Shown: piece by piece, positions 858-31,415 of the stretch
How the letters are laid out: the number at the start of each line of letters is the position of its first letter
How positions within the stretch are numbered: the first letter of the stretch is position 1
DNA from: a virus
IMG/VR virus record: IMGVR_UViG_3300045988_089817
Span: 1 to 32,468 of that record
Reading direction: 5' to 3' (one strand)
Length of the DNA: 32,468 nt
Notes under the pieces: model-generated
Told to the model about the DNA's origin: nothing
Databases searched by the model: none
The model's input: the letters and a program-made list of their open reading frames with translations, nothing else
Position numbers and translations under genes: made by a program

Positions 858-1016
858 TTATTTTTCCTCCTTTTTAACTGGTACTAATTTAATAGTTTCA
901 TCATCATAGAACTCTAAATAGAATTCACTACCATATTTATTAATTAGAAATTGTGGTATGGTTATTCTGTTTCTATCCTTATCTGCTTTCTTCATAAATC
1001 TAAATAATAGTTTCAT
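858..1016 (-). CDS. AbrB/SpoVT-like (looped-hinge helix) DNA-binding protein, 52 aa
   Basis: Not in the ORF track (too short). My translation is MKLLFRFMKKADKDRNRITIPQFLINKYGSEFYLEFYDDETIKLVPVKKEEK. The RITIP...G..F.LE.DD..I.L.P pattern matches the AbrB/SpoVT fold. RBS is AAAGGTAGGTGA, and a consensus promoter lies about 30 nt upstream. Confidence 0.55.
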   Translation of the reverse strand: MKLLFRFMKKADKDRNRITIPQFLINKYGSEFYLEFYDDETIKLVPVKKEEK

Positions 1017-1045
1017 TTTATCACCTACCTTTCATATCTAAAACG

Positions 1046-1074
1046 ATTATACACCATTTAAGTGGGTATGTCAA
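1046..1074 (-). promoter_or_regulatory. consensus sigma-A type promoter (TTGACA-17-TATAAT)
   Basis: On the minus strand, TTGACA is at 1074..1069, the spacer is 17 nt, and TATAAT is at 1051..1046. It is about 30 nt upstream of the ATG at 1016. Confidence 0.7.
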
Positions 1075-1077
1075 TAT

Positions 1078-1111
1078 ATAAAAAGAAGAAATATTATCTT
1101 TTTAATATCTC
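1078..1111 (-). terminator. candidate intrinsic terminator after the 156-aa ORF
   Basis: In the minus RNA, GAGAUAUUA (1111..1103) pairs with UAAUAUUUC (1096..1088). This is 9 bp including one G.U, with loop AAAAGA, followed by UUCUUUUUAUAUAU. Confidence 0.45.
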
Positions 1112-1120
1112 CCCCCTTAA

Positions 1121-1591
1121 TTATTCAAAACTGTTTTCAAATTTTATACTTTCTAATTTCTTTTTTAGAGCATTAATTTTATTTTCTGTACTTGTATAAG
1201 CATTTTTAAACCTTTTTAATGAGCATTCTTTATCTGCTAGTCTATTTATACTATCTTTGCAGAAACGAGTTCCTAGAGCCTCAAAATAAGCCATAGCAGG
1301 TGCTTTCCCATCTCTTTCAGTATTCCAATTCTTTCGCTCTTCAGTTGTTTTTATTGCTCTATCTATTTCTATTTGTGTTTTTAATTCTATTATGTCTTTA
1401 GTAAGCCTTGCTATTACTTCTCCTATTATGTAATTAAGATTAGAATAAACTTCTACATTTTGTGCATATTGATACATTGAATTAGGTTCATCTATAATTT
1501 TTTTAAATACTTCTTGATACATACTAGCAAGTTCTTTTTCATTTATACTTTTTATGTTAAAAGGATTAAATAAGAATAATTTTTCTTCCAT
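1121..1591 (-). CDS. hypothetical early protein (156 aa)
   Basis: Long ORF. Its ATG overlaps the upstream stop (TAATG). I recognise no motif. Confidence 0.6.
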   Translation of the reverse strand: MEEKLFLFNPFNIKSINEKELASMYQEVFKKIIDEPNSMYQYAQNVEVYSNLNYIIGEVIARLTKDIIELKTQIEIDRAIKTTEERKNWNTERDGKAPAMAYFEALGTRFCKDSINRLADKECSLKRFKNAYTSTENKINALKKKLESIKFENSFE

Positions 1592-1746
1592 TATTTCCCT
1601 CCTATTCTTTGTATTTTTTCAAGCATCGCCATTACTAAGAACGATGTCTTACTTTGGCCTGTCATTTTTGTTGCTTTTTCTAATTCATTAAACTCCCATT
1701 CGGAAAGCCTAATATTTAATACTTTTGTTTTTGTTTTCTTTCTCAT
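1591..1746 (-). CDS. ribbon-helix-helix (CopG/Arc-like) DNA-binding protein, 51 aa
   Basis: Not in the ORF track. My translation is MRKKTKTKVLNIRLSEWEFNELEKATKMTGQSKTSFLVMAMLEKIQRIGGK. It has a beta-strand (VLNIRLS) followed by two helices. Its stop overlaps the next ATG (TAATG). Confidence 0.55.
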   Translation of the reverse strand: MRKKTKTKVLNIRLSEWEFNELEKATKMTGQSKTSFLVMAMLEKIQRIGGK

Positions 1747-1754
1747 ATTATCTC

Positions 1755-1961
1755 CTATCTACAATATTGGTCATATAATTCACAATATTGATTTTTATAT
1801 TCTTTTAAATCTTCAATTTCTTCTTGTTGTTTTTCTATTTCTGCATAATAATCTTCTAATTTATCAATTAATTCTTCAACAGATACTAAGTCTTGATTTT
1901 TAAATATATCATTTAATGCACCACTATTAATATCTTTTAAATTAATATAAACATTATCCAT
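1755..1961 (-). CDS. hypothetical acidic coiled-coil protein (68 aa)
   Basis: ORF in the operon, with start/stop coupling to its neighbours. Confidence 0.5.
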   Translation of the reverse strand: MDNVYINLKDINSGALNDIFKNQDLVSVEELIDKLEDYYAEIEKQQEEIEDLKEYKNQYCELYDQYCR

Positions 1962-2861: not shown

Positions 2862-3164
2862 CTTTAATATTTTACCTATATTTTGGTAATATTCTTCGTT
2901 TGGAGGTTGCATACTTTCATTTAATTCTCTGAATAAATTATTTAATTCATTATATGCTTGTAAATCTATTTTTTCAATTCTATGCAAGTCCTCATGAGAT
3001 TTCTCTATTAATAAAGCATAATTAGATATATCGTTTGCACCTCCATATACTTTTTTAAATATATGGTGTCTTGTTAATGGAGTGTTTCTATATATCTTGT
3101 ATCCCATCCAATCTCTTTCTTTTGTTTTATAGATTTTAAGCATTATCTTAACATCTTTATTCAA
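2844..3164 (-). CDS. small HNH-family endonuclease (106 aa)
   Basis: LTRHHIFKKVYGGANDISNYALLIEKSHEDLH fits the H-N-H spacing. Confidence 0.5.
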   Translation of the reverse strand: MNKDVKIMLKIYKTKERDWMGYKIYRNTPLTRHHIFKKVYGGANDISNYALLIEKSHEDLHRIEKIDLQAYNELNNLFRELNESMQPPNEEYYQNIGKILKRVKKN

Positions 3165-3660
3165 CTTTTTCTATCTCTGCATATTTCCAAATAAAGCCAC
3201 CTGCTTGTTTTATTTTACCTTTACAACAATTACATATACCACTTCTAGAAACTCCTGTTTTTTCACTTGCTTCTTTCCCTGTGATATAAGTATCAATCAA
3301 AACTCCATTCAGAGAAAATTGACTAACTGGTTTTAATTTTCTTTCACCATGATAATAAGCATAAATTAAATTATAACTATAGTTGCATTCTTCTAAATTA
3401 TTTAATTCGTTGTCCCTTTTATCGCTATTAATGTGATTTATAATGCTATTTTTATTTTTAAATCCTTTGAATGTTTCATAAACAAGTCTGTGAATATATT
3501 TTTTGTTTTTTCTTCCTAAATTAACAAACAAATAATTATTTACATTATTGCAATTCTTATATAAATGTTTTTTTGTTTTTTTATTTCTAACATTTCCTAA
3601 ATTACTAACTTGATATAATCCCTCATAACCAACTATATCTTTCCATACTTCATTTTCCAT
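3157..3660 (-). CDS. free-standing homing endonuclease, NUMOD4 + HNH_3 type
   Basis: WKDIVGYEGLYQVSNLGNVRN is a NUMOD4 motif. HRLVYETF...INHINSDKRDNELNNLE is the HNH_3 core. The C-terminus has a helix-turn-helix-like segment (GKEASEKTGVSRSGI). I moved the start to ATG 3660 because GGGAGG lies within the track's first codons. Confidence 0.8.
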   Translation of the reverse strand: MENEVWKDIVGYEGLYQVSNLGNVRNKKTKKHLYKNCNNVNNYLFVNLGRKNKKYIHRLVYETFKGFKNKNSIINHINSDKRDNELNNLEECNYSYNLIYAYYHGERKLKPVSQFSLNGVLIDTYITGKEASEKTGVSRSGICNCCKGKIKQAGGFIWKYAEIEKVE

Positions 3661-3735
3661 TTTAATACCTCCCACAACAAAGTATTAGAGGAGCAGTTGT
3701 GGTACTCCTCATAAATAATTATAACAAATAATTTA

Positions 3736-4656
3736 TTAATTGTCTATATATGCTTGAAACTTTGTTGCAACAACACTTCTTTCTCCCGCATATCCATCAA
3801 ACCCTGAACCTTTAATTGTATCTTTTTGATATGGATAATCATTTACTTTATAGTAAATATATTTATATCCACTTTCTTTAATTATATCCTTTGGTGTATA
3901 ATAGTATGCTTCTACAGTTGCAATTGGTTCACCATTTCCAGCACATCCAGTATTATGATTGTTAATATCACATTCAGTTACCCAAGGAAGTGTTAATCCG
4001 CTTGTTGTTGTAACTCTATATTTAAGACCACCTTTATCCGTTTTCATTGCAAGATATCTAATTGGATGGTCACTCCAACCAGCATAATCTTCAAGATTTT
4101 TAACCATTGGTAGTACACCATCTTCTTTAGTTTCTACTTGATAATAAACATTAACTTTATTTGAAACAGGTTTATCTTCTAATTTAGCCTTTATCATATT
4201 TAAAAACCTATCCCAACCCATATCTAATGTTCTATGAGGGCAATATTTATGATTTCCATAGTCTTGATGTTTTGTTACTCTATCAATTCCCCATCCATAT
4301 CTTTTTAATATATCTACGATTAAGTCAACTGCATTTTGTTCGGCTTTGATAAATCTTTCTCCGCCAGATTTTGAATAACATATTTCTATTGCTATACCCT
4401 CTCTATTTCCTTTGCCATTGCCATCCGAAGCATGCCAGCCATTTCTATTTTCTTCTATTCCTTGCACTATTTCTTTATCATCAACAGCATAATGGAACGA
4501 TGTCTCATTGTTATTATTTGTCATATATGCTATTTCATTTCTAGCAGTAGCATCGTTAGCAGTATTATGTACTACTATTCTTGTAGGTGTCATACTATAA
4601 GGACATTTTATTCCCCATTTGCTTTCTGGTACTAATTTTTTTATTATATTTACCAT
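3736..4656 (-). CDS. endolysin, N-acetylmuramoyl-L-alanine amidase (Amidase_2/PGRP type) with C-terminal wall-binding domain
   Basis: The N-terminus (IVVHNTAN...SFHYAVDD...GWHA...NREGIAIEIC...VTKHQDY..KYCP) matches the zinc-amidase pattern. The gene follows the holins. Confidence 0.85.
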   Translation of the reverse strand: MVNIIKKLVPESKWGIKCPYSMTPTRIVVHNTANDATARNEIAYMTNNNNETSFHYAVDDKEIVQGIEENRNGWHASDGNGKGNREGIAIEICYSKSGGERFIKAEQNAVDLIVDILKRYGWGIDRVTKHQDYGNHKYCPHRTLDMGWDRFLNMIKAKLEDKPVSNKVNVYYQVETKEDGVLPMVKNLEDYAGWSDHPIRYLAMKTDKGGLKYRVTTTSGLTLPWVTECDINNHNTGCAGNGEPIATVEAYYYTPKDIIKESGYKYIYYKVNDYPYQKDTIKGSGFDGYAGERSVVATKFQAYIDN

Positions 4657-9294: not shown

Positions 9295-10485
9295 TTATGC
9301 TCCTCCCATTCCATAATTATAATCATTTTTAGACCCACCACTAAATGTCTTAATATTATTAACCATTTGTCCTAATGGGTCTTGCTCCATATTGTTATTT
9401 ACTACTACATTAATCTGTGGACTTAAATTAGTACTTGAACTTCCATATAAGCTAGGCGATAAACTAAACATATCATCAAACATTCCATCTACTGTTGAAT
9501 TAACTTGTCCTTTCATATCTTCCATACCTTCTTCTAAACCTACCATATTCATTTTACCTATCCATGCAAATTCTGTTGATGGACTATGTATTCCAAATAT
9601 ACTTTTAATTCCATTTAATATAGATTTTCCAAAGCCTTTAATCTTGTCTAATATCCATTTGCTAACATTTTTTATACCATTCCATATTCCCATAATCATA
9701 TTTTTACCTATATTAACTAATTTTTTAGGCAATTCCATAAAATAACCTACTAAAGAAGTTATTATTTTAGGAATATAACTTAAAAGTTTAGGGACTGCTT
9801 GTATTAATCCTTGCAATAAACCTATAAGTAATTGAAATCCTGCCTCTATAAATAAAGGCAAATTATCTATTAATATAGGTATAGTGCTAAGAATAGCATC
9901 TATGATAACTGGTATCAATGTTGGTAATTGTTGTGCTAATGCTTGAATTATCATAATTAAACCTTGAATTAAAGCCTCTAGTATAATAGGCAACATATTT
10001 GCCAATTCTTGAATTATGGTAGGCAACATACCCATTAATATTTGAATAATACCAGGCAATGCTTGAACTAACCCCATTATTAATGTTGAAGTACCTTGTA
10101 TCAATGCCGGCAAAATTGCTTGAAGTAAAGGCGCTATCATAGGTACTAAATTATTCAATAAAGTAGTTAACCCTGTTATTATTTGAGGTGCCATTTTGAT
10201 TATAGCATTTGATATATTTGTTCCAGCAGTAGTAAAGGTACTTATTACTTCTTCTATACCACCTGCACCACTTAAGAAATTACTAAATGCTGACTTAGCA
10301 CTATTTATTGAGCCACTTATAGTGGTAGAGGCTTCTTTTGCTGTTGTTCCTGTTACATCTAATTCTTCTTGAATTACATGAATAGCATTAAATACATCAT
10401 TTAAATTAGAAATATCGTATTTAACTCCTGATATCTTTTCGGCATCAGCAAGTAATCTTTCCATTTCTGTTTTTGTGCCACCATA
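9295..10485 (-). CDS. tail tape measure protein, exon 3
   Basis: It begins TATGGTGGC (YGGTKTEMERLLADAEKISG...). It has a long hydrophobic helical repeat region typical of tape-measure proteins. The GTG 'start' of the track ORF at 10488 is taken as the last three intron bases. Confidence 0.8.
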   Translation of the reverse strand, partial: YGGTKTEMERLLADAEKISGVKYDISNLNDVFNAIHVIQEELDVTGTTAKEASTTISGSINSAKSAFSNFLSGAGGIEEVISTFTTAGTNISNAIIKMAPQIITGLTTLLNNLVPMIAPLLQAILPALIQGTSTLIMGLVQALPGIIQILMGMLPTIIQELANMLPIILEALIQGLIMIIQALAQQLPTLIPVIIDAILSTIPILIDNLPLFIEAGFQLLIGLLQGLIQAVPKLLSYIPKIITSLVGYFMELPKKLVNIGKNMIMGIWNGIKNVSKWILDKIKGFGKSILNGIKSIFGIHSPSTEFAWIGKMNMVGLEEGMEDMKGQVNSTVDGMFDDMFSLSPSLYGSSSTNLSPQINVVVNNNMEQDPLGQMVNNIKTFSGGSKNDYNYGMGGA

Positions 10486-10717
10486 CACTTGTTAACATAA
10501 AAGTTTTTTATCTTTTATTTCTATATATTTATCATCTATATAGTTCAGCATATCTTTTAACTTATATAAAGTTCCGAAGCCTCGTGGAGGTATTATATCT
10601 TTTCAACCTCTATGCGTTGCCCCTGACTATACTTTGTATAGCCTTCGGTTCTGATTACCCTTTTTTTGATGGGCTTCCAGTTTAATTCTTCGGTTTATAC
10701 TCGGCTATGGTCTTTCA
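10486..10717 (-). ncRNA. group I-like intron 2 in the tape-measure gene (232 nt, no ORF)
   Basis: The 5' exon ends ACUCGGU (10724..10718). This pairs perfectly with the intron segment GCCGAGU (10705..10699), including the terminal U.G, which is a canonical P1. The intron ends in G (..CAAGUG). It also has AAAAGAUA followed by UGCUGA (J8/7-P7-like) and several hairpins (P8- and P9-like). Confidence 0.65.
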
Positions 10718-10739
10718 ACCGAGTTTTAAATTATCTAAC
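10718..10739 (-). CDS. tail tape measure protein, 22-nt micro-exon
   Basis: The minus sequence GTTAGATAATTTAAAACTCGGT supplies (M)LDNLKLG when joined to ..ACGAT and TATGGT.., restoring the motif QNYTMLDNLKLGYGGT in a single frame. Confidence 0.75.
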
Positions 10740-11053
10740 CATTTATACCCCTAGTTTCCTAGTACTTTAACACTTATTTAAAAGTGGGACTAGACTATAT
10801 CTTTATCTCATTTGAGATAGTATGCACTTCCAATATCGTATCAATAGATATTGTACTGAGTAACGAACTCATAGTCGTTTGACCTTCCTATTTCTAGGCT
10901 TGGCACTGGATAACCATATCTTTTAGACTTAGGTTTCCCCAGTTAGCAAGATTATCTCAATAAGTCATTTCCTACTTATATTTTAATCTCACACCCTTGA
11001 TAAGGTTCACATACACTTACTTAATTATCACTAATTAAGCAGACATTAATTTT
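10740..11053 (-). ncRNA. group I intron 1 in the tape-measure gene (314 nt, no ORF)
   Basis: GGUCAAACGACUAUGAG (10884..10868) and AAAGAUAUAGUCUAGUCC (10803..10786) resemble the R and S core elements, with GACUAU/AUAGUC as P7. AACUGGGGAAACC (10944..10932) and UUAUCCAGUGCC (10913..10902) resemble P/Q (P4). The upstream exon ends in U and the intron ends in G. P1 pairing is weak (only GAU/GUC), so boundaries may be off by a few nt. Confidence 0.7.
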
Positions 11054-11535
11054 ATCGTATAATTCTGCTTAGCGAAGCCTTGATAGGCATTTTGAATGCT
11101 TTCTATTGCAGTACCGAATTTGTTCGAGTTGTCTGCCATGTCTTGAATAGCCATATCGCCAACTTTGGCTGCCTCTTCTGTATCTCCACCTAGACTTTGT
11201 AATAAACTAGCACTAAATGATGTTATTTGTTCCATATATTTATTAGCATCTATTCCTGCTGTTGTATAGGCTTTTTTAGAGTTCTCTATAACTGTATCAG
11301 CACTATCTTTGAAAAGTGTCTCTACACCTCCGATATTCTGTTCTAAATCAGCCACCCCTTGTAAGGCATCTTTACCAAGCCCTAATAAAGAACTACCTAC
11401 TTTTTCAATAGCACTAGACATTAAATTACCAATAGCAATTGTACTGGCTTTCAATTTACCAGCGACACCATTAGTCTTTTTTTCTAGGTCTTTATCATCT
11501 CCTTTAAACTTGAAGATGACTTCTCCTCCATTCAT
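11054..11535 (-). CDS. tail tape measure protein, exon 1
   Basis: The ATG at 11535 has RBS AAGGAGGTGGAATAAATG. The N-terminal tape-measure core ends ..AIESIQNAYQGFAKQNYT, with the last two exon bases AT. The unspliced frame runs into a stop six codons later. Confidence 0.8.
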
Positions 11536-15437: not shown

Positions 15438-16412
15438 CTATTTATTTAATTCTTTTATAGTAGCATTTATCTTTTTTATTTTAGCATTTGTTTTATCTAC
15501 CTCACTTCCATTTCCTAAATCTTCATATATCTTTTTATCATTCTTTAATTTAGTTCTTTTTAGTTGTAGGGCTTGTATCTTTTGCTTTTTTTCATAATCT
15601 TCTTGCCACTTATCAGAATTATAATCATTTTCTTGTATTTGGTCTTTATCCCAATATATAGTCCATTGGTGTCTACAATTAGGATGACCTACACCACCAG
15701 CAATTGCTTCTTCTTGTGGATAATATTTAATTCCATCAGAAGTATATCCACTCTTTCCCTCTTTACTATATACCTTACCTTGATAAGGCATACATAAAGG
15801 GCAAGCGAATGTATGTGCTGGTAAGTATAAAAGTTCTTTCTCCAATAAATTAGCATCGTACATCGTCCTATTCCAACCTGCATGATTAAGATTAGTATTA
15901 TAAAGCATTGAATTATAATCTGCTATGTTATGCCAACTTCTTACACTTCCATCTTTATTATGGTATGGTATGGTGGCTTGCACTTCATCATACTTAGTTA
16001 CTAGTTTAGATAAATAACTTTCTCTATCTATATAACTTTTGTTTGCTGTTTTTCTTCTGCCTTTATAATACTCATCAATGTTATATTTATATTTTTTCTC
16101 TACATTTTGGAATACTTTTTCACTTGCTAATTCATATATTTGTTTATATTCAGCATCAGGATTTATTATTTTATTTCCCTCTAAATCTCTAGCCATTATC
16201 ATATCTTCAAGTTCTTTTATTCTTTCAGCCATATATTTATGGTCTACCTTTTCCCATATTTTTGCAGTTTCTTTTTTGAACTCTGCTAGAGTTTTATTCT
16301 TATATAAGTAATCGAAGAATACTCGTTTAGTTTCATACATTAGTTTATAATATTCATTCTTTGAATAGTAAGCACTATCTTCTATAAATAAACTAAATGG
16401 GTCTTTTTTCAT
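15438..16412 (-). CDS. minor head protein, SPP1 gp7 / Mu F-like head morphogenesis protein
   Basis: The C-terminal segment CPLCMPYQGKVY...GGVGHPNCRHQW fits the Phage_Mu_F motif. It lies directly downstream of the portal gene. Confidence 0.75.
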   Translation of the reverse strand: MKKDPFSLFIEDSAYYSKNEYYKLMYETKRVFFDYLYKNKTLAEFKKETAKIWEKVDHKYMAERIKELEDMIMARDLEGNKIINPDAEYKQIYELASEKVFQNVEKKYKYNIDEYYKGRRKTANKSYIDRESYLSKLVTKYDEVQATIPYHNKDGSVRSWHNIADYNSMLYNTNLNHAGWNRTMYDANLLEKELLYLPAHTFACPLCMPYQGKVYSKEGKSGYTSDGIKYYPQEEAIAGGVGHPNCRHQWTIYWDKDQIQENDYNSDKWQEDYEKKQKIQALQLKRTKLKNDKKIYEDLGNGSEVDKTNAKIKKINATIKELNK

Positions 16413-23270: not shown

Positions 23271-24527
23271 TTACACCAACCATTCCATCAAAGGCTTTAT
23301 TGCTTTTGAATAATATTCTTTTTCTTCTGGTGTTGTACCCTCTAATTGTTCCAGCATTTTTTTTAATTCGTGTTCCGTTTCTTTAGTTTCTTTTTCAATT
23401 CTAATCATATCTTGGACTACTTCTCTTAAATCTGGTAAAGGTTCATCCTCAAAGGTATCTACATATCTAGGAATATTAAGGTTATAGTCATTTTCAATTA
23501 CTTCTTTATAACTTGCTAAATGTGAATATTTTTCTATTTCATTTCTATTTTGATACGTTTCTATTATTTTATTTATTTGAACGTCGCTCATATCATTTTG
23601 TTTTGCTTGATTTATGCAATTTTTAGAACTATCTATAAATAAAATATTATTATCTTTTTTATTTTTATTTAATATTAATATGCAAGTGGGTATTTGTGTA
23701 TTTAAGAACATTTTATCAGGTAAACCTATAATACTATCAATTAAATTATTATCTATTAGTTGTTTTCTTATTTTGCCTTCTGCTTGCCCTCTAAATAAAA
23801 TTCCATGAGGTAATATCATGAATGCTTTACCATTTTCATCTAATCTATATAAAATATCTAATATAAATGCAAAATCTGCTTTTGACTTTGGTGCTAATTC
23901 ATACGTATTAAATCTTTCATCTGCTATTGGTTGCCATTCTAATGAATATGGAGGGTTAGATATTATAGTATTATATTTTCTTTTTTCAATATTTTCAACT
24001 TTTGATATAATACTATATCTTTCTCCTTTTTCCAATTTATAAATATCTAATATTTCATTCTTTAATACATCTTTTCTTAATACATATCCTTTGACATTTC
24101 TTATTGCTAAATTAAACAATAAAGTTGATATACTTCTTTGTGATAATTCTTCACATACTATCGATAAATCATTATTTTCATTATAAGAGAATATACTTAA
24201 TGCTCCTGTCCCACTACATACATCTAGCAATGTATCTTTTTCATTTTGTAATTTTGAGATGATTTTACATATTGCGTCTGGTGTATAATCTTGCTTTAAA
24301 CTTTTTCTATCTGCGTGCTGTTCTTGAAAATAATCTCTAAAAATGTCTTTTGTTAAATCAACATCATATCCCATAAATTTATCAAATAACTTAATCATTG
24401 AATTGTTATCTAATAATAAAGCCATAAGTTTATCAGGTAATTCATAACTTTCTTTTATTTCTAAAAGATTATTTATTATTTGATTTGTTATTTTCTTATC
24501 TCTGAATAATGACATTTGATTATCCAT
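23271..24527 (-). CDS. N6-adenine DNA methyltransferase, type I HsdM-like
   Basis: Motif I is LLDVCSGTGAL and motif IV is IISNPPYSLEW. I moved the start to ATG 24527 (SD AGGTGG), because the track start is a GTG inside the SD. Confidence 0.8.
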   Translation of the reverse strand: MDNQMSLFRDKKITNQIINNLLEIKESYELPDKLMALLLDNNSMIKLFDKFMGYDVDLTKDIFRDYFQEQHADRKSLKQDYTPDAICKIISKLQNEKDTLLDVCSGTGALSIFSYNENNDLSIVCEELSQRSISTLLFNLAIRNVKGYVLRKDVLKNEILDIYKLEKGERYSIISKVENIEKRKYNTIISNPPYSLEWQPIADERFNTYELAPKSKADFAFILDILYRLDENGKAFMILPHGILFRGQAEGKIRKQLIDNNLIDSIIGLPDKMFLNTQIPTCILILNKNKKDNNILFIDSSKNCINQAKQNDMSDVQINKIIETYQNRNEIEKYSHLASYKEVIENDYNLNIPRYVDTFEDEPLPDLREVVQDMIRIEKETKETEHELKKMLEQLEGTTPEEKEYYSKAIKPLMEWLV

Positions 24528-24553
24528 TATTACCACCTACTTAATAATATCTT

Positions 24554-26519: not shown

Positions 26520-26694
26520 CTAAATTATTACATCTTATACAATATACTTCGTTTTTGCTATTAGTCATAAATAAACTTTTTTTATAACATTTAGGACATA
26601 TTTCTTTTGGCTTTCTGCTATATGTCTTGTGTATTTCTTTTAATTTATCTTTTTCTCTTTCTCTTAATATTTTTCTTTCACTATTTTGGCTCAT
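26503..26694 (-). CDS. zinc-ribbon protein (63 aa)
   Basis: It has CPKC...CIRC motifs. The start is set at ATG 26694, preceded by GGAGGTAATAAAAATG. Confidence 0.5.
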   Translation of the reverse strand: MSQNSERKILREREKDKLKEIHKTYSRKPKEICPKCYKKSLFMTNSKNEVYCIRCNNLVAIKK

Positions 26695-27253
26695 TTTTAT
26701 TACCTCCATTATATTTTTCTTTACATTCTTTTATAAACTTTTTTATTATTCTACTCGCTTGGGCTTGTGTAATATTTGTTTTTTTTGATATTTGGATTTG
26801 AGTTAATTCTTTATAGCCTAATAAGCCATAAGTAGAACATATTATTAATTTATCTCTTTCGCTTAATTTGAATATTTCTTTATAAATTAATTCTAATCTT
26901 TCTTTTTTTATAATGTTATCTTCTATATTTTCTTTTGAAGGAATTACATCTAATAAATATAATTCTTTACCATTATCATTTATTTGTGTATAAATTGATA
27001 TGTCTTGTATCCCATTTCCTCTTTTTTGCATAGATTGTTTTCTTTTATAAGCAAGTATTTCATTAGTTATGCATGATGTTAAATATGTTGATGCTTTATA
27101 GCCTTTATCTCCACTGTAAGTATTAGCACCTTTAACTAATCCTATCATTCCTATGTCATAATATTCATCAAGTTGATTATATAAATTATATCTTTTTAAC
27201 ACCATATATATTAAATTTATATTATCTAATATTAACTTTTCTTTCGTTAACAT
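26681..27253 (-). CDS. sigma-70 family RNA polymerase sigma factor (regions 2 and 4)
   Basis: Region 2-like: YDIGMIGLVKGANTYSGDKGYKASTYLTSCITNEILAYKRK. Region 4-like: LSERDKLIICSTYGLLGYKELTQIQISKKTNITQAQASRIIKKFIKE. Confidence 0.8.
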   Translation of the reverse strand: MLTKEKLILDNINLIYMVLKRYNLYNQLDEYYDIGMIGLVKGANTYSGDKGYKASTYLTSCITNEILAYKRKQSMQKRGNGIQDISIYTQINDNGKELYLLDVIPSKENIEDNIIKKERLELIYKEIFKLSERDKLIICSTYGLLGYKELTQIQISKKTNITQAQASRIIKKFIKECKEKYNGGNKNEPK

Positions 27254-28454: not shown

Positions 28455-28658
28455 TTACCACTTATAAGTCCACATCAAATATAATACATAACTTAATATT
28501 GCTGTTAATAATAATAAATTAATTATAATTAAATATGCTTTTATATCTTCTTGTTTATCTTTTTTTAATATTCTTAATTGTTCTCTTTCAGTCTTACTTG
28601 TAGGAAATTCTTTTTTTAATTTCCACATTTGAAATCTACTTATTTTTTCTGGTTTCAT
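28455..28658 (-). CDS. small membrane protein (67 aa, C-terminal TM)
   Basis: It has a hydrophobic helix (AYLIIINLLLLTAILSYVLYLMW). Confidence 0.45.
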   Translation of the reverse strand: MKPEKISRFQMWKLKKEFPTSKTEREQLRILKKDKQEDIKAYLIIINLLLLTAILSYVLYLMWTYKW

Positions 28659-29164
28659 TTTATCCTCCTAAAATCTTTGCAAGCCTCTGTATTTTTTGTT
28701 ATTCTTATTTTTCTATATCTACAATAATATGTAGGTATTGAATTACCTTTTATTTGCCTTTTTTCTAATAATCTGCAATTTTTACATCTATCTTTTATTT
28801 CTTTTTTCTCTTCTGATATTATAATTCTTTCTCTAAGGCTATTTTTTTTATCATATTTGAGTGTTTTCATCAAACTAGATAAATCCATTATGTTTTCTTT
28901 TTTAATTAAATATGACCTACAAAATTGTTTTATTTGGTCTCTTAATGATATATTTTTGCCATTATCTAACGATTGATGACATTTAATACATAACATAACA
29001 CCATTTTCTTTGCAACCTTTGCCACCATGAGCCCTTGATAAGAATATATGTGCTATTTGTAATGCTCCATTATTTCCACAAAAGACACACCTATTATTAT
29101 CTCTTTTCTTTATATATTTTCTTGTTTCTTTGTCAAACTCACACCATTGACTTCTTATACTCAT
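28655..29164 (-). CDS. HNH endonuclease (169 aa) with extra Cys clusters
   Basis: CVFCGNNGALQIAHIFLSRAHGGKGCKENGVMLCIKCH is a CxxC...H...N...CxxCH HNH core. Confidence 0.7.
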   Translation of the reverse strand: MSIRSQWCEFDKETRKYIKKRDNNRCVFCGNNGALQIAHIFLSRAHGGKGCKENGVMLCIKCHQSLDNGKNISLRDQIKQFCRSYLIKKENIMDLSSLMKTLKYDKKNSLRERIIISEEKKEIKDRCKNCRLLEKRQIKGNSIPTYYCRYRKIRITKNTEACKDFRRIK

Positions 29165-30833: not shown

Positions 30834-31415
30834 TTATTCCTCATCTTTCTTTTTAAATAATTTACTTAATATTTCACTTGCTTTATTAATAGACATATCT
30901 TCTAACTTTTCAAGGTTATTTACTTCTAATAATTTTATTAAGTTTTCACCTTGATAATATTTTTGTATAAGTTCTATTTGTTTAGGGCTTGCCTTTTTGT
31001 CTTCTTTTTCTTCTTTACTTTGAATATTAGTAGTATCACTATCTTTATTATCATCTATTCCAAATAAACCATTCAAAGCATATTTTCTAGCATAACTACT
31101 ACTTGCTCCAGTTATTTGACTTCCATCCATTCCTTTTTTTGTTTCTTCTTCTCTTGCATAAGCACTATTACTTATAGTTGCCTCACTTTCAGTATCAATA
31201 AGTGTTGCTGTTGCTTTTATATAGTATCTATTTCCTATATATTGAAGTTCATCACTTATTGTTAATACCACCTTTTCTTTTTTTAATAAAGGTTTTACTG
31301 CTTCTAATATGTCCTCACAACTTCTGTAAGCATATTTACCAAAATCATTGTATTGTCCTTTTGGTGCTTTTAATTCTTGTTGAATATTCATTAATTTAAT
31401 ATTTATTTCTTTCAT
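30834..31415 (-). CDS. ERF-family single-strand annealing protein
   Basis: FGKYAYRSCEDILEAVKPLLKKEKVVL and GASSSYARKYALNGLFGIDD match the ERF superfamily pattern. Confidence 0.75.
   Translation of the reverse strand: MKEINIKLMNIQQELKAPKGQYNDFGKYAYRSCEDILEAVKPLLKKEKVVLTISDELQYIGNRYYIKATATLIDTESEATISNSAYAREEETKKGMDGSQITGASSSYARKYALNGLFGIDDNKDSDTTNIQSKEEKEDKKASPKQIELIQKYYQGENLIKLLEVNNLEKLEDMSINKASEILSKLFKKKDEE

What the first reader, a model, noticed from the sequence alone, without database searches (positions are those of the whole stretch)
10486..11053. Tape-measure gene interrupted by two ORF-less group I-like introns separated by a 22-nt micro-exon
The track ORFs 11035..11535 and 9295..10488 are two halves of one tape-measure protein. 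The first reads ...NAYQGFAKQNYT and then IKLMSA-stop. The second begins (GTG)YGGTKTEMERLL.

In the 546-nt gap, the minus strand carries GTTAGATAATTTAAAACTCGGT at 10739..10718. Joining ..ACGAT | GTTAGATAATTTAAAACTCGGT | TATGGTGGC.. gives QNYT-MLDNLKLG-YGGTK in one frame (482 + 22 + 1191 nt = 565 codons). From memory, NYTMLDNLKLGYGGT is a strongly conserved motif of Firmicute phage tape-measure proteins.

Both inferred 5' splice sites follow a U, and both intervening sequences end in G.

Intron 2 (232 nt) has a textbook P1. Exon ACUCGGU (10724..10718) pairs with GCCGAGU (10705..10699), with the U.G at the splice site.

Intron 1 (314 nt) carries R-like GGUCAAACGACUAUGAG and S-like AAAGAUAUAGUCUAGUCC (P7 GACUAU/AUAGUC). 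It also has P/Q-like CUGGGGAAACC and UAUCCAGUGCC.

Neither intron contains an ORF, and the region is visibly GC-richer than its surroundings. Two ribozymes only 22 nt apart inside a structural tail gene is an unusual arrangement. The micro-exon must serve both as 3' exon for one intron and as P1 substrate for the other.
Basis: partly seen in the sequence, partly recalled or inferred. Interest (0 to 1): 0.85.

Follow-up and report, generated by a model that had tools for sequence, protein, structure and literature searches.

The report
Tape-measure gene with two adjacent introns
A gut phage's tail tape-measure gene is interrupted by two self-splicing group I introns only 22 bases apart; this is real, but it is a new example of an arrangement already seen in phages rather than a new kind of element.

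Summary
On the minus strand, exon 1 (11535..11054), a 22-nt micro-exon (10739..10718) and exon 3 (10485..9295) join into one 564-aa tape-measure protein. Its junction, QNYT|MLDNLKLG|YGGTKTEMERLL, is residue-for-residue identical to uninterrupted homologues.

Intron 1 (314 nt) scores 44 bits on Rfam group I, below the 50-bit gathering score. It is homologous to HNH-carrying introns at the same site in Lactococcus phage 38502 and Streptococcus phage Str-PAP-1, and covariation supports its helices.

Rfam misses intron 2 (232 nt). A covariance model built only from other phage introns hits it at 188 bits (E 3e-43). Its family shows strong covariation for P3–P9.1, and its P1 and P10 are contiguous and perfect.

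The twin arrangement recurs in at least 9 IMG/VR contigs and in prophage Javan271, with three different intron-2 lineages.

Published precedents exist. Twort orf142 has a 23-nt exon between two group I introns, and the ICP1 tape-measure gene has three introns. I therefore rate this a new member of a known kind and of moderate interest. Splicing itself is inferred, not shown.

The parts
11054..11535 (-). Exon 1 of the tape-measure gene (482 nt, ends ...ACGAU).
   Evidence: ORF list. PHROG tape-measure hits. Alignment to homologues up to ...QNYT.
10740..11053 (-). Intron 1, an ORF-less group I intron (314 nt) at site NYT|M.
   Evidence: RF00028 scores 44.1 bits, E 8.9e-10, at 11014..10772. It is homologous to HNH-containing introns at the same site in Lactococcus phage 38502 and Str-PAP-1. 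RNAalifold on 11 relatives finds 40 of 85 pairs with compensatory changes.
11040..11049 (-). Intron 1 internal guide: UUAAU (P10 with micro-exon GUUAG) followed by GUC(U)G (short P1 with exon CGAU, U·G at the splice site).
   Evidence: YUAAUGUCYG is conserved in all site-1 introns, although the distance to the splice site varies. The pairings were read directly from the sequence. P1 is only 3-5 bp and could not be tested by covariation, because the exon is invariant.
11020..11039 (-). Intron 1 P2 hairpin with a GUGA tetraloop.
   Evidence: The stem covaries among relatives: CUUAAUUA/UAAUUAAG, UUGCGUAA/UUACGCAA, CUAUGCCA/UGGCAUAG.
11008..11014 (-). Intron 1 P3 5' strand GUAUGUG, pairing with UGCAUAC at 10826..10820.
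   Evidence: Six haplotypes keep the helix through double changes: GUACGUG/UGCGUAC, GUGCGUG/UGCGCAC, GUGGGUG/CGCCCAC, UCUUGUG/CGCAAGA and others.
10948..11007 (-). Two extra hairpins between the P3 5' strand and P4 of intron 1 (AACCUU..AAGGGU and GAGAUUA..UAAUCUU).
   Evidence: Both are predicted by RNAalifold, with compensatory changes (columns 72-86 and 87-133).
10793..10876 (-). Intron 1 catalytic core: P7 5' GACUAU (10876..10871), P7.1 (10870..10858), P7.2 (10852..10832), P3 3' (10826..10820), P8 (10819..10804), J8/7 and P7 3' AUAGUC (10798..10793).
   Evidence: Rfam alignment. RNAalifold. Coordinates. In relatives the HNH ORF sits in the P8 loop.
10718..10739 (-). Micro-exon GUUAGAUAAUUUAAAACUCGGU (22 nt), which completes the Met codon and encodes LDNLKLG.
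   Evidence: It is the only joining that restores frame and motif. The same 22-nt unit lies between two introns in at least 9 IMG/VR contigs and in Javan271.
10486..10717 (-). Intron 2, an ORF-less group I intron (232 nt) at site KLG|Y.
   Evidence: Covariance model R1, built without this sequence, scores 187.6 bits, E 2.6e-43, at 10696..10488, with no non-canonical pairs. Family covariation: 97.6% of cells paired against 76% in shuffles, and 34 pairs with double changes.
10699..10711 (-). Intron 2 internal guide: ACCAUA (P10 with exon 3 UAUGGU at 10485..10480) followed by GCCGAGU (P1 with micro-exon ACUCGGU at 10724..10718).
   Evidence: Direct complementarity. The same guide sequence occurs in Streptococcus phage MissG1's site-2 intron, which scores 69.4 bits on RF00028.
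10546..10616 (-). Intron 2 core: P7 5' CGCAUA (10616..10611), P7.1 (10610..10587), P3 3' CUUCGG (10579..10574), P8 (10573..10559), J8/7 and P7 3' UAUGC(U)G (10552..10546).
   Evidence: P7 is invariant in alignment A1 but covaries in more distant relatives: Exiguobacterium phage GACUA/UAGUC and PMBT8 CGCUUA/UAAGCUG.
9295..10485 (-). Exon 3 of the tape-measure gene (1191 nt including the stop). The annotated GTG 'start' at 10488..10486 is the last three bases of intron 2.

Best explanation
The region is a single tail tape-measure gene of an uncultured gut phage. It is interrupted at two neighbouring positions of its most conserved motif (…QGFAKQNYT|MLDNLKLG|YGGTK…) by two unrelated group I introns. 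Both have lost their homing-endonuclease genes.

**How it most likely works (inferred)**
1. Each intron folds on its own and splices by the standard two-step, guanosine-initiated mechanism.
2. Intron 1 selects its 5' site through a short P1 (exon ..CGAU with GUC(U)G). It selects its 3' site through the terminal G and a P10 between UUAAU and the first five bases of the micro-exon.
3. Intron 2 selects its 5' site through a 7-bp P1 between the last seven bases of the micro-exon and GCCGAGU. It selects its 3' site through the terminal G and a 6-bp P10 (ACCAUA with UAUGGU).
4. The two guide sequences use non-overlapping ends of the 22-nt micro-exon and do not cross-match the other intron's exons. 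Exon inclusion is therefore expected, giving a 564-aa tape-measure protein.
5. Skipping the micro-exon would shift the frame and stop 28 codons later.

**Evolution**
The conserved motif is a double homing hotspot. Relatives carry HNH or other endonuclease genes in these introns. The window's copies are late, ORF-less stages that must still splice for the phage to build a tail.

**Shown versus inferred**
Shown: the anatomy, the homology, the covariation and the recurrence. Inferred: actual splicing, its order, and past homing.
For: - **Junction restores a conserved protein.** The junction peptide is identical to intron-less homologues. The spliced protein matches tape-measure PHROGs in one stretch across the junction, whereas exon 1 alone is truncated in the profile. 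In the phage collection, 66 records cover at least 80% of the query in one place.
- **Intron 1.** RF00028 scores 44.1 bits, E 8.9e-10. It is 72-77% identical to the HNH-bearing introns at the same codon in Lactococcus phage 38502 and Str-PAP-1. RNAalifold recovers P2, P3, P4, P5, P6, P7.1, P7.2, P8 and P9, with 40 of 85 pairs compensated.
- **Intron 2.** The leave-out covariance model scores 187.6 bits, E 2.6e-43. Its family has at least 119 IMG/VR hits. Members lie inside split terminase, gyrase A and capsid genes. The family shows P3/P4/P5/P6/P7.1/P8/P9/P9.1 with 97.6% pairing, against 32-41% when partners are slid. P7 covaries in distant relatives.
- **Site 2 elsewhere.** MissG1's site-2 intron has the same P1/P10 guide and passes Rfam at 69.4 bits.
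- **Recurrence.** Among 20 IMG/VR contigs carrying the site-1 intron end, 8 have a second intron right after the 22-nt exon. These second introns belong to three different lineages. L069 and GenBank prophage Javan271 add two more cases.
- **ORF-loss series for intron 1.** Lengths of about 860 nt (full HNH), 539, 388, 314 and 283 nt are seen.
- **Introns more conserved than exons.** Intron 1 is 96-98% identical where exon 1 is 64-75% identical. L015 has intron 1 but an empty site 2.
- **Precedent.** Tandem group I introns with short exons are documented (PMC10136302).
Against: - There is no expression data, so splicing is not shown.
- Intron 1 falls below Rfam's gathering score (44.1 against 50). 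It disappears from whole-window scans.
- Intron 1's P1 is only 3-5 bp with a bulge. It cannot be tested by covariation because the exon is invariant.
- Intron 1 has two hairpins between P3 and P4. I cannot match these to a described subgroup.
- Intron 2 gets only a 13-bit partial Rfam hit. Its assignment to group I rests on topology, P1/P10, a J8/7-like AAAGAUAUGCU, and membership of a family found in genes annotated as spliced (JCL1032 terminase join). It does not rest on a curated model.
Confidence: 0.88

Rival explanations
1. The two inserts are decayed intron remnants that no longer splice. The tape-measure gene would then be a pseudogene, or be expressed as two separate polypeptides (166 aa and 397 aa) that assemble non-covalently.
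For: Both introns lack endonuclease ORFs. Intron 1 scores below the Rfam gathering score and has a weak P1. Gene callers annotate two ORFs.
Against: - All core helices of both introns are intact in the window copy, with no non-canonical pairs in the R1 alignment. The guide sequences still match their exons perfectly.
- The 22-nt micro-exon is kept in frame and identical across at least 5 contigs whose exon 1 differs by about 35%. That is pointless unless it is spliced in.
- The second 'ORF' starts at a GTG made of intron bases, and no ribosome-binding site was noted.
- Exon 3 (397 codons) is open and conserved.
Confidence: 0.05
2. The tandem introns act together as a switch. A substantial share of transcripts skip the micro-exon (5' site of intron 1 joined to 3' site of intron 2), as reported for Twort orf142. 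This would yield a truncated N-terminal product that tunes tape-measure dosage.
For: Exon skipping is documented for tandem group I introns flanking 23-34-nt exons, and in SIOphi (PMC10136302; PMC11878797). Here skipping would give a frameshifted product of 161 native residues plus 28 frameshifted ones, 189 aa in all.
Against: - The two introns belong to different lineages with different P1/P10 guides.
- Intron 1's UUAAU does not pair with exon 3 UAUGG. Intron 2's GCCGAGU does not pair with exon 1 ..UACGAU (read directly from the sequence).
- The engineering study found that distinct guide elements suppress skipping.
- Relatives pair intron 1 with three unrelated intron-2 types, which argues against a co-adapted pair.
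Confidence: 0.05
3. The arrangement is an assembly artefact: a metagenomic chimera that stitched intron-containing fragments into a tape-measure gene.
For: The window is a metagenome scaffold.
Against: The same exon 1 protein is found on 10 contigs of 20-50 kb. The same twin layout occurs in independent IMG/VR contigs from other samples. It also occurs in a prophage of a sequenced isolate, Streptococcus iniae SF1 phage Javan271.
Confidence: 0.01

Closest known systems
Staphylococcus phage Twort orf142 (tail tube gene), group I introns 2 and 3 flanking a 23-nt exon (Landthaler & Shub 1999, as summarised in PMC10136302 and PMC11878797).
   Same: It is a phage tail structural gene with two self-splicing group I introns separated by a micro-exon of almost the same length. 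The 3' domain of window intron 1 (10805..10740) is about 90-95% identical to introns of Twort-like phages.
   Different: Twort introns 2 and 3 are close paralogues of each other and show exon skipping. Here the two introns are unrelated lineages with distinct guide sequences. The host gene is the tape-measure gene, and the pairing is combinatorial across phages.
Vibrio phage ICP1 tape-measure gene, with four exons and three introns, verified by RT-PCR (Barth et al. 2023, PMC10448857).
   Same: A tape-measure gene split by several introns, with variable HNH endonuclease content of the introns at fixed splice junctions.
   Different: The ICP1 tape-measure protein was not detected as a homologue of this one (one search lists no Vibrio phages). 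The paper as read does not report exon sizes or the intron class of the neighbours, and no 22-nt exon is described.
Site-1 introns with HNH genes in Lactococcus phage 38502 (KX160204) and Streptococcus phage Str-PAP-1 (KP208803).
   Same: They share the insertion point (…NYT|M…), the guide UAAUGUCCG, the core and the 3' end GGGGUAUAAAYG. They are homologous over the whole ribozyme.
   Different: They carry a 163-aa NUMOD4/HNH ORF in the P8 loop, and they have no intron at site 2.
Site-2 introns in Streptococcus phage MissG1 (OL774877, annotated ncRNA) and Lactococcus phage C41431 (KX160219); twin layout in prophage Javan271 (MK448723).
   Same: They share the insertion point (…KLG|Y…). MissG1 has the same P1/P10 guide ACCAUAGCCGAGU. 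Javan271 has both sites occupied around the same 22-nt exon.
   Different: Their ribozyme cores belong to other lineages. MissG1's core resembles window intron 1, not intron 2. C41431 carries an endonuclease ORF. In the records the micro-exon is not annotated.
Terminase, gyrase and capsid introns of the 'GGGGCAACGCAUAG' family, for example Lactobacillus phage JCL1032 terminase (annotated as a join) and Staphylococcus phage PMBT8 terminase.
   Same: They share the core as window intron 2 (P3-P9.1, J8/7 AAAGAUAUGCU, 3' …GAUAACA).
   Different: They sit in different host genes and have different guide sequences. Many carry ORFs or extra hairpins in P5, P7.1 or P8.
Deletion derivatives of the Streptococcus thermophilus phage lysin intron (Foley et al. 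2000, cited in PMC3952083).
   Same: A series from an endonuclease-bearing intron to an ORF-less intron at one site.
   Different: A different gene and a single site.

Membership tests
Group I intron: intron 1 (10740..11053) | Match to the curated covariance model RF00028 at its gathering score (50 bits). | tested here: not met
   44.1 bits, E 8.9e-10, full-length alignment, and only in a 951-nt search. Nothing appears at gathering threshold or in whole-window scans. The model mis-aligns P1-P3 because of the extra hairpins.
Group I intron: intron 1 | Core helices P3-P8 with the P3/P7 pseudoknot topology and a P4-P6 domain, supported by covariation. | tested here: met
   RNAalifold on 11 relatives finds P2, P3 (long-range), P4, P5, P6, P7.1, P7.2, P8 and P9, with 40 of 85 pairs compensated. 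P7 GACUAU/AUAGUC is invariant and flanked by consensus J6/7 and J8/7 (AAGAUAUAGUC).
Group I intron: intron 1 | 5' splice site after a U that forms U·G in P1 with an internal guide sequence; the intron's last base is G; P10 with the 3' exon. | tested here: inconclusive
   U and the terminal G are present. P10 UUAAU/GUUAG (5 bp) is adjacent to GUC(U)G, which gives only a 3-5-bp P1. The guide is conserved in all relatives, but the exon is invariant, so no covariation test is possible.
Group I intron: intron 2 (10486..10717) | Match to RF00028 at its gathering score. | tested here: not met
   Only a 13-bit partial hit over P4-P5. RF00028 also misses ORF-less relatives such as the PMBT8 terminase intron, so the model does not cover this class.
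Group I intron: intron 2 | Core helices P3-P9 with pseudoknot topology, supported by covariation. | tested here: met
   Alignment A1 (35 sequences): 34 of the 45 RNAalifold-predicted pairs have compensatory changes. With the 6 invariant P7 pairs added (51 pairs), 97.6% of cells pair against 76.2% in shuffles (0 of 500 reach it) and 32-41% when partners are slid. P7 is compensated in Exiguobacterium phage and PMBT8 relatives. Model R1, built without the window, hits at 187.6 bits.
Group I intron: intron 2 | U·G at the 5' splice site in P1, a contiguous P10, and a terminal G. | tested here: met
   ACUCGGU/GCCGAGU forms 7 bp with a terminal U·G. ACCAUA/UAUGGU forms 6 bp immediately 5' of the P1 guide. 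The intron ends ...AAGUG.
Group I intron: both introns | Guanosine-dependent self-splicing. | not testable with these tools
   This needs in vitro transcription and splicing, or RNA data.
Mobile (homing) intron | An intron-encoded homing endonuclease. | tested here: not met
   Neither window intron has an ORF of 60 aa or more. Relatives at the same sites carry HNH or other endonuclease ORFs.
Tail tape-measure protein | Full-length similarity of the spliced product to tape-measure families, and position in the tail module. | tested here: met
   PHROG hits: phrog_6900 at 3.6e-69, phrog_58 at 5.4e-64, phrog_3981 at 6.1e-56. tblastn hits to annotated tape-measure genes. Pfam gives no hit.
Twintron (intron within an intron) | One intron inserted inside another. 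| tested here: not met
   The two introns lie side by side, separated by a coding 22-nt exon that is needed to restore the motif.

The most novel reading that the evidence does not exclude
The motif QNYT|MLDNLKLG|YGG of Firmicute-type tape-measure genes may be a combinatorial double homing hotspot. Two insertion sites 22 bp apart have been invaded independently by several intron lineages: at least four intron-1 haplotype groups and at least three unrelated intron-2 lineages. Double occupancy may then be favoured because each intron disrupts the DNA target of the other site's endonuclease, or because the locus marks a recombination boundary between tail-gene modules. In addition, intron 1 may represent an undescribed group I variant with a two-hairpin domain inserted between P3 and P4.
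Probability: 0.3. Interest if true: 0.55.

Novelty: new member of a known kind. Interest (0 to 1): 0.45.

Why it matters
- **Annotation.** Gene callers split this tape-measure gene into two 'genes' and miss the 22-nt exon. The same error sits in GenBank records (Javan271, Lactococcus phages 38502 and C41431, Str-PAP-1). Tail length is set by tape-measure length, so wrong gene models mislead tail-length and host-range inferences.
- **A gap in the standard RNA model.** It is invisible to RF00028.
- **A natural test set.** The locus offers the same 22-nt exon flanked by different intron pairs. This allows tests of how tandem ribozymes avoid exon skipping, and of how neighbouring homing sites interact.

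None of this changes how group I introns are understood.

Tried and rejected
- **Rfam on the window.** The gathering-threshold scan and the whole-window E-value scan both returned nothing. The intron 1 hit appears only when a short stretch is searched.
- **Rfam on relatives of intron 2.** Nothing was found. This showed a model gap rather than absence of structure.
- **Pfam on the spliced protein.** No hit. PHROGs was used instead.
- **A canonical 6-7-bp P1 for intron 1.** I tried candidate guides GUGUAU, GUGAU and GUAAGU, and pairing of the exon with the intron's 3' end GUAUAA. None is conserved in relatives, so I rejected them in favour of the conserved UAAUGUCYG.
- **UAAUCUUGC as the P3 5' strand of intron 1.** This follows Rfam's alignment. 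I rejected it because that strand covaries with a local partner (hairpin B), while GUAUGUG covaries with the P3 3' strand.
- **A trans-acting endonuclease in the window for the ORF-less introns.** The free-standing NUMOD4/HNH ORF at 3157..3675 is only 35% identical to the site-1 intron endonuclease. The HNH ORF at 18581..19207 is unrelated. No case can be made.
- **Host identification.**
  - The portal-like protein has no match in cultured phages.
  - The genome-collection pattern scan gave only Ileibacterium valens and Companilactobacillus nodensis prophages, carrying other intron-1 variants.
  - The host remains unknown.
- **A second intron in the terminase/intein region.** Rfam on 18380..19330 gave nothing, and model R1 found only one convincing hit in the window: intron 2, plus a 10.7-bit, E 0.39 match at 10950..11174.
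Full report
**1. What is in the sequence**

On the minus strand the ORF 11535..11035 ends …NAYQGFAKQNYT-IKLMSA-stop. The ORF 10488..9295 begins GTG-YGGTKTEMERLL. The string GTTAGATAATTTAAAACTCGGT lies at 10739..10718.

Joining 11535..11054, 10739..10718 and 10485..9295 gives 482 + 22 + 1191 nt, which is 564 codons plus a stop. The product reads …QGFAKQNYTMLDNLKLGYGGTKTEMERLLADAEK…. No other pair of boundaries restores both the frame and the Met codon. Both 5' sites follow U and both inserts end in G. The inserts are 314 and 232 nt, and neither has an ORF of 60 aa or more.

**2. The protein argument**

A tblastn search of the spliced N-terminal part finds 386 phage records, and 66 of them cover at least 80% of the query in one place. 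Three uninterrupted tape-measure genes read QNAYQGFAKQNYTMLDNLKLGYGGTK(T/E)EM(E/Q)RLL straight through the two junctions:
- Acutalibacter phage Fontainebleau
- Latilactobacillus phage TMW 1.1381 P1
- Streptococcus phage Javan242

The spliced protein matches tape-measure PHROGs in one stretch across the junction. phrog_6900 covers residues 10-205 at 3.6e-69, and phrog_3981 covers 13-464. Exon 1 alone stops at profile position 198 of 235. Pfam has no model for it.

**3. Each site is an intron site elsewhere**

| Phage | Site occupied | Intron content |
|---|---|---|
| Lactococcus phage 38502 | NYT\|M (site 1) | 864-nt insert with a 163-aa HNH gene |
| Streptococcus phage Str-PAP-1 | site 1, plus a further site at KMG\|TS | site-1 intron; the KMG\|TS intron scores 82 bits on RF00028 |
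| Lactococcus phage C41431 | KLG\|Y (site 2) | carries an endonuclease ORF |
| Streptococcus phage MissG1 | site 2 | ORF-less, 275 nt, annotated ncRNA, 69.4 bits on RF00028 |

**4. Intron 1 (11053..10740)**

RF00028 gives 44.1 bits (gathering score 50) with E 8.9e-10 when 951 nt are searched. It gives nothing at gathering threshold or in a whole-window E-value scan, where the filters are stricter.

Intron 1 is homologous along its length to the site-1 introns of phage 38502 and Str-PAP-1. Its 3' domain (10805..10740) is about 90-95% identical to introns of Twort-like staphylococcal phages.

I built ORF-excised versions of 11 distinct site-1 introns. RNAalifold on these predicts the following helices:
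- P2, with a GUGA tetraloop
- a long-range P3 (GUAUGUG at 11014..11008 with UGCAUAC at 10826..10820)
- P4, P5 and P6
- P7.1 and P7.2
- P8 and P9

Forty of the 85 predicted pairs are kept through double changes. P3 alone shows six compensated haplotypes. P7 (GACUAU/AUAGUC) and J8/7 (AAGAUAUAGUC) are the group I consensus. In relatives the HNH gene sits in the P8 loop.

Lengths of about 860, 539, 388, 314 and 283 nt form an ORF-loss series.

The guide sequence is the conserved YUAAU-GUCYG (11049..11040). UUAAU pairs with the first five bases of the micro-exon to form P10. GUC(U)G gives a short P1 with exon CGAU, including the U·G pair. This P1 is weak and could not be tested by covariation.

Two covarying hairpins (11007..10948) lie between the P3 5' strand and P4. 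I cannot place these in a described subgroup.

**5. Intron 2 (10717..10486)**

Rfam gives only a 13-bit partial hit over P4-P5.

Sensitive blastn shows that pieces of the intron match the gaps inside split genes of diverse phages:
- terminase genes: JCL1032 (annotated as a join), PMBT8, Exiguobacterium phage, LIS04
- gyrase A genes: vB_BpuM-BpSp, phiR1-37
- a capsid gene

RF00028 misses these too. The 20-mer TAGTCAGGGGCAACGCATAG occurs in at least 119 IMG/VR stretches.

I aligned 35 non-redundant ORF-less members (alignment A1). RNAalifold independently returns P3, P4, P5, P6/P6a, P7.1, P8, P9 and P9.1, with 34 of 45 pairs compensated. I then added the P7 pseudoknot and counted pairs:

| Measure | Observed | Shuffled | Partners slid |
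|---|---|---|---|
| Cells forming a standard pair | 97.6% | 76.2% (0 of 500 shuffles reach the observed value) | 32-41% |
| Covariation score | 0.578 | 0.160 | 0.044-0.103 |

P7 (CGCAUA/UAUGC[U]G) is invariant in that set. It is compensated in more distant relatives: Exiguobacterium phage has GACUA/UAGUC and PMBT8 has CGCUUA/UAAGCUG.

A covariance model built from 33 members, excluding the window and its closest relative, hits 10696..10488 at 187.6 bits, E 2.6e-43. No non-canonical pair appears in the alignment, and there is only one such hit in the window.

P1 (ACUCGGU at 10724..10718 with GCCGAGU at 10705..10699) and P10 (ACCAUA at 10711..10706 with UAUGGU at 10485..10480) are perfect and contiguous. 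The same guide occurs in MissG1.

**6. The twin layout recurs**

A scan of IMG/VR for the intron-1 end plus the micro-exon returned 20 contigs. Eight of them have a second intron immediately after the 22-nt exon:
- four carry the window's intron 2 (L014, L016, L029, L030)
- three carry a MissG1-type intron (L017, L022, L027; one of these has a 187-aa ORF)
- one carries a C41431-type intron (L018)

L069 is a ninth case. GenBank prophage Javan271 of Streptococcus iniae SF1 has an HNH-bearing intron 1, the 22-nt exon and an ORF-less intron 2. It is annotated simply as two 'minor tail protein' genes plus an HNH gene.

L015 has the window's intron 1 at 96% identity but an empty site 2. Its exons are only 65-75% identical to the window's. 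In L016 and L030, exon 1 is 64% identical while both introns are 97-100% identical. So the introns, or the block starting at them, move between divergent tape-measure genes.

Only two species-representative bacterial genomes carry the pattern. The window's portal-like protein has no match among cultured phages. The window itself is an ENA gut metagenome scaffold.

**7. Mechanism**

I infer standard group I splicing for each intron. The micro-exon's 5' end (GUUAG) serves intron 1's P10, and its 3' end (ACUCGGU) serves intron 2's P1. These segments do not overlap.

The guides do not cross-match the other intron's exons. Together with the engineering result that distinct guides suppress skipping (PMC10136302), this predicts exon inclusion. 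Skipping would give a 1673-nt frameshifted message that stops 28 codons after QNYT.

**8. Comparison with what is known**

- Tandem group I introns around very short exons are documented. Twort orf142 has a 23-nt exon, with exon skipping. Coxiella 23S rRNA has a 34-nt exon. phiNIT1 has a small exon between two introns.
- Tape-measure genes are known intron and endonuclease targets. ICP1's has three introns, verified by RT-PCR.
- I found no paper describing this particular double site in tape-measure genes. The library is incomplete, however.

**9. Verdict**

The observation and interpretation are essentially correct. The element is a new member of a known kind.

Its interest lies in four things:
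- the combinatorial double hotspot
- the annotation errors it causes
- the Rfam gap for the intron-2 family
- the odd P3-P4 insert of intron 1

It does not represent a new mechanism.

Noticed in passing
window 18457..20852 (- strand): The large terminase ORF (20852..19251) runs into an intein N-terminal block (…FDHHIDA|CLIGDTIITTDKGNF…) and then stops. An HNH_3 endonuclease ORF follows at 19207..18581. A short ORF at 18690..18457 ends …NGIVVHN|CRYLLAEWKEQDKCPIV, which is an intein C-terminal block plus a C-extein. The intein coding sequence is therefore itself split by an endonuclease gene: a 'fractured gene' or split intein, or an undetected intron inside the intein. Neither Rfam nor model R1 finds an RNA there.
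   Followed up: partly
window 10948..11007 (- strand); alignment A3 columns 72-133: Intron 1 and all its relatives carry two covarying hairpins between the 5' strand of P3 and P4, where group I introns normally have only a short J3/4 joiner. This probably explains why RF00028 mis-aligns P1-P3 and scores below its gathering score.
   Followed up: partly
It lies in split terminase, gyrase A and capsid genes. RF00028 does not detect it, even in ORF-less members such as the PMBT8 terminase intron.
   Followed up: yes
L036 (Listeria phage LIS04) 1..1800: In LIS04 an endonuclease ORF, followed by an intron-2-family core, lies between CDSs annotated 'intein splicing region protein' and 'Hint domain protein', upstream of the terminase. 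This may be a group I intron inside an intein-coding sequence.
   Followed up: no
L002 (Str-PAP-1) 1312..1598; L010 (bajarodcaudo virus 1) 1001..1809: Str-PAP-1's tape-measure gene has a further intron site (…NSNKMG|TSMESIQ…), 20 codons upstream of site 1, with an 82-bit RF00028 intron plus an endonuclease. The motif region therefore has at least three insertion sites. The bajarodcaudo capsid gene also appears to hold at least two introns of different families.
   Followed up: partly
window 3157..3675 (- strand); also 28655..29164: There is a free-standing NUMOD4 + HNH_3 + I-HmuI-like endonuclease gene just downstream of the amidase endolysin (4656..3736). It is 35% identical to the site-1 intron endonuclease of Lactococcus phage 38502. 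A further HNH_2 ORF lies at 29164..28655. The phage is rich in homing-type nucleases, although its tape-measure introns are empty.
   Followed up: partly
window 10788..10795 with 10733..10740 (- strand): RNAalifold proposes an 8-bp pairing of GUCUAGUC (just 3' of P7) with the terminal G plus GUUAGAU of the micro-exon. It is invariant or wobble-compatible in all relatives. It would compete with P10 at the 3' splice site. Whether it is meaningful is untested (columns 352-359 with 420-427).
   Followed up: no
L014, L016, L030, L015 compared with the window: Sequence identity jumps at the intron. Exon 1 is 63-75% identical while the introns (and, in three contigs, exon 3) are 95-100% identical. 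The intron locus behaves as a boundary of genetic exchange between tail modules, as described for nuclease genes in PMC10448857.
   Followed up: partly
whole window: The scaffold is an uncultured, roughly 30% GC gut phage. Its portal-like protein (17776..16412) has no tblastn match in 50,697 phage records. Other genes include an N6 DNA methylase (24536..23271), a sigma-70-like factor (27253..26681), an ERF recombinase (31415..30834) and a DnaC/IstB-like ATPase.
   Followed up: no
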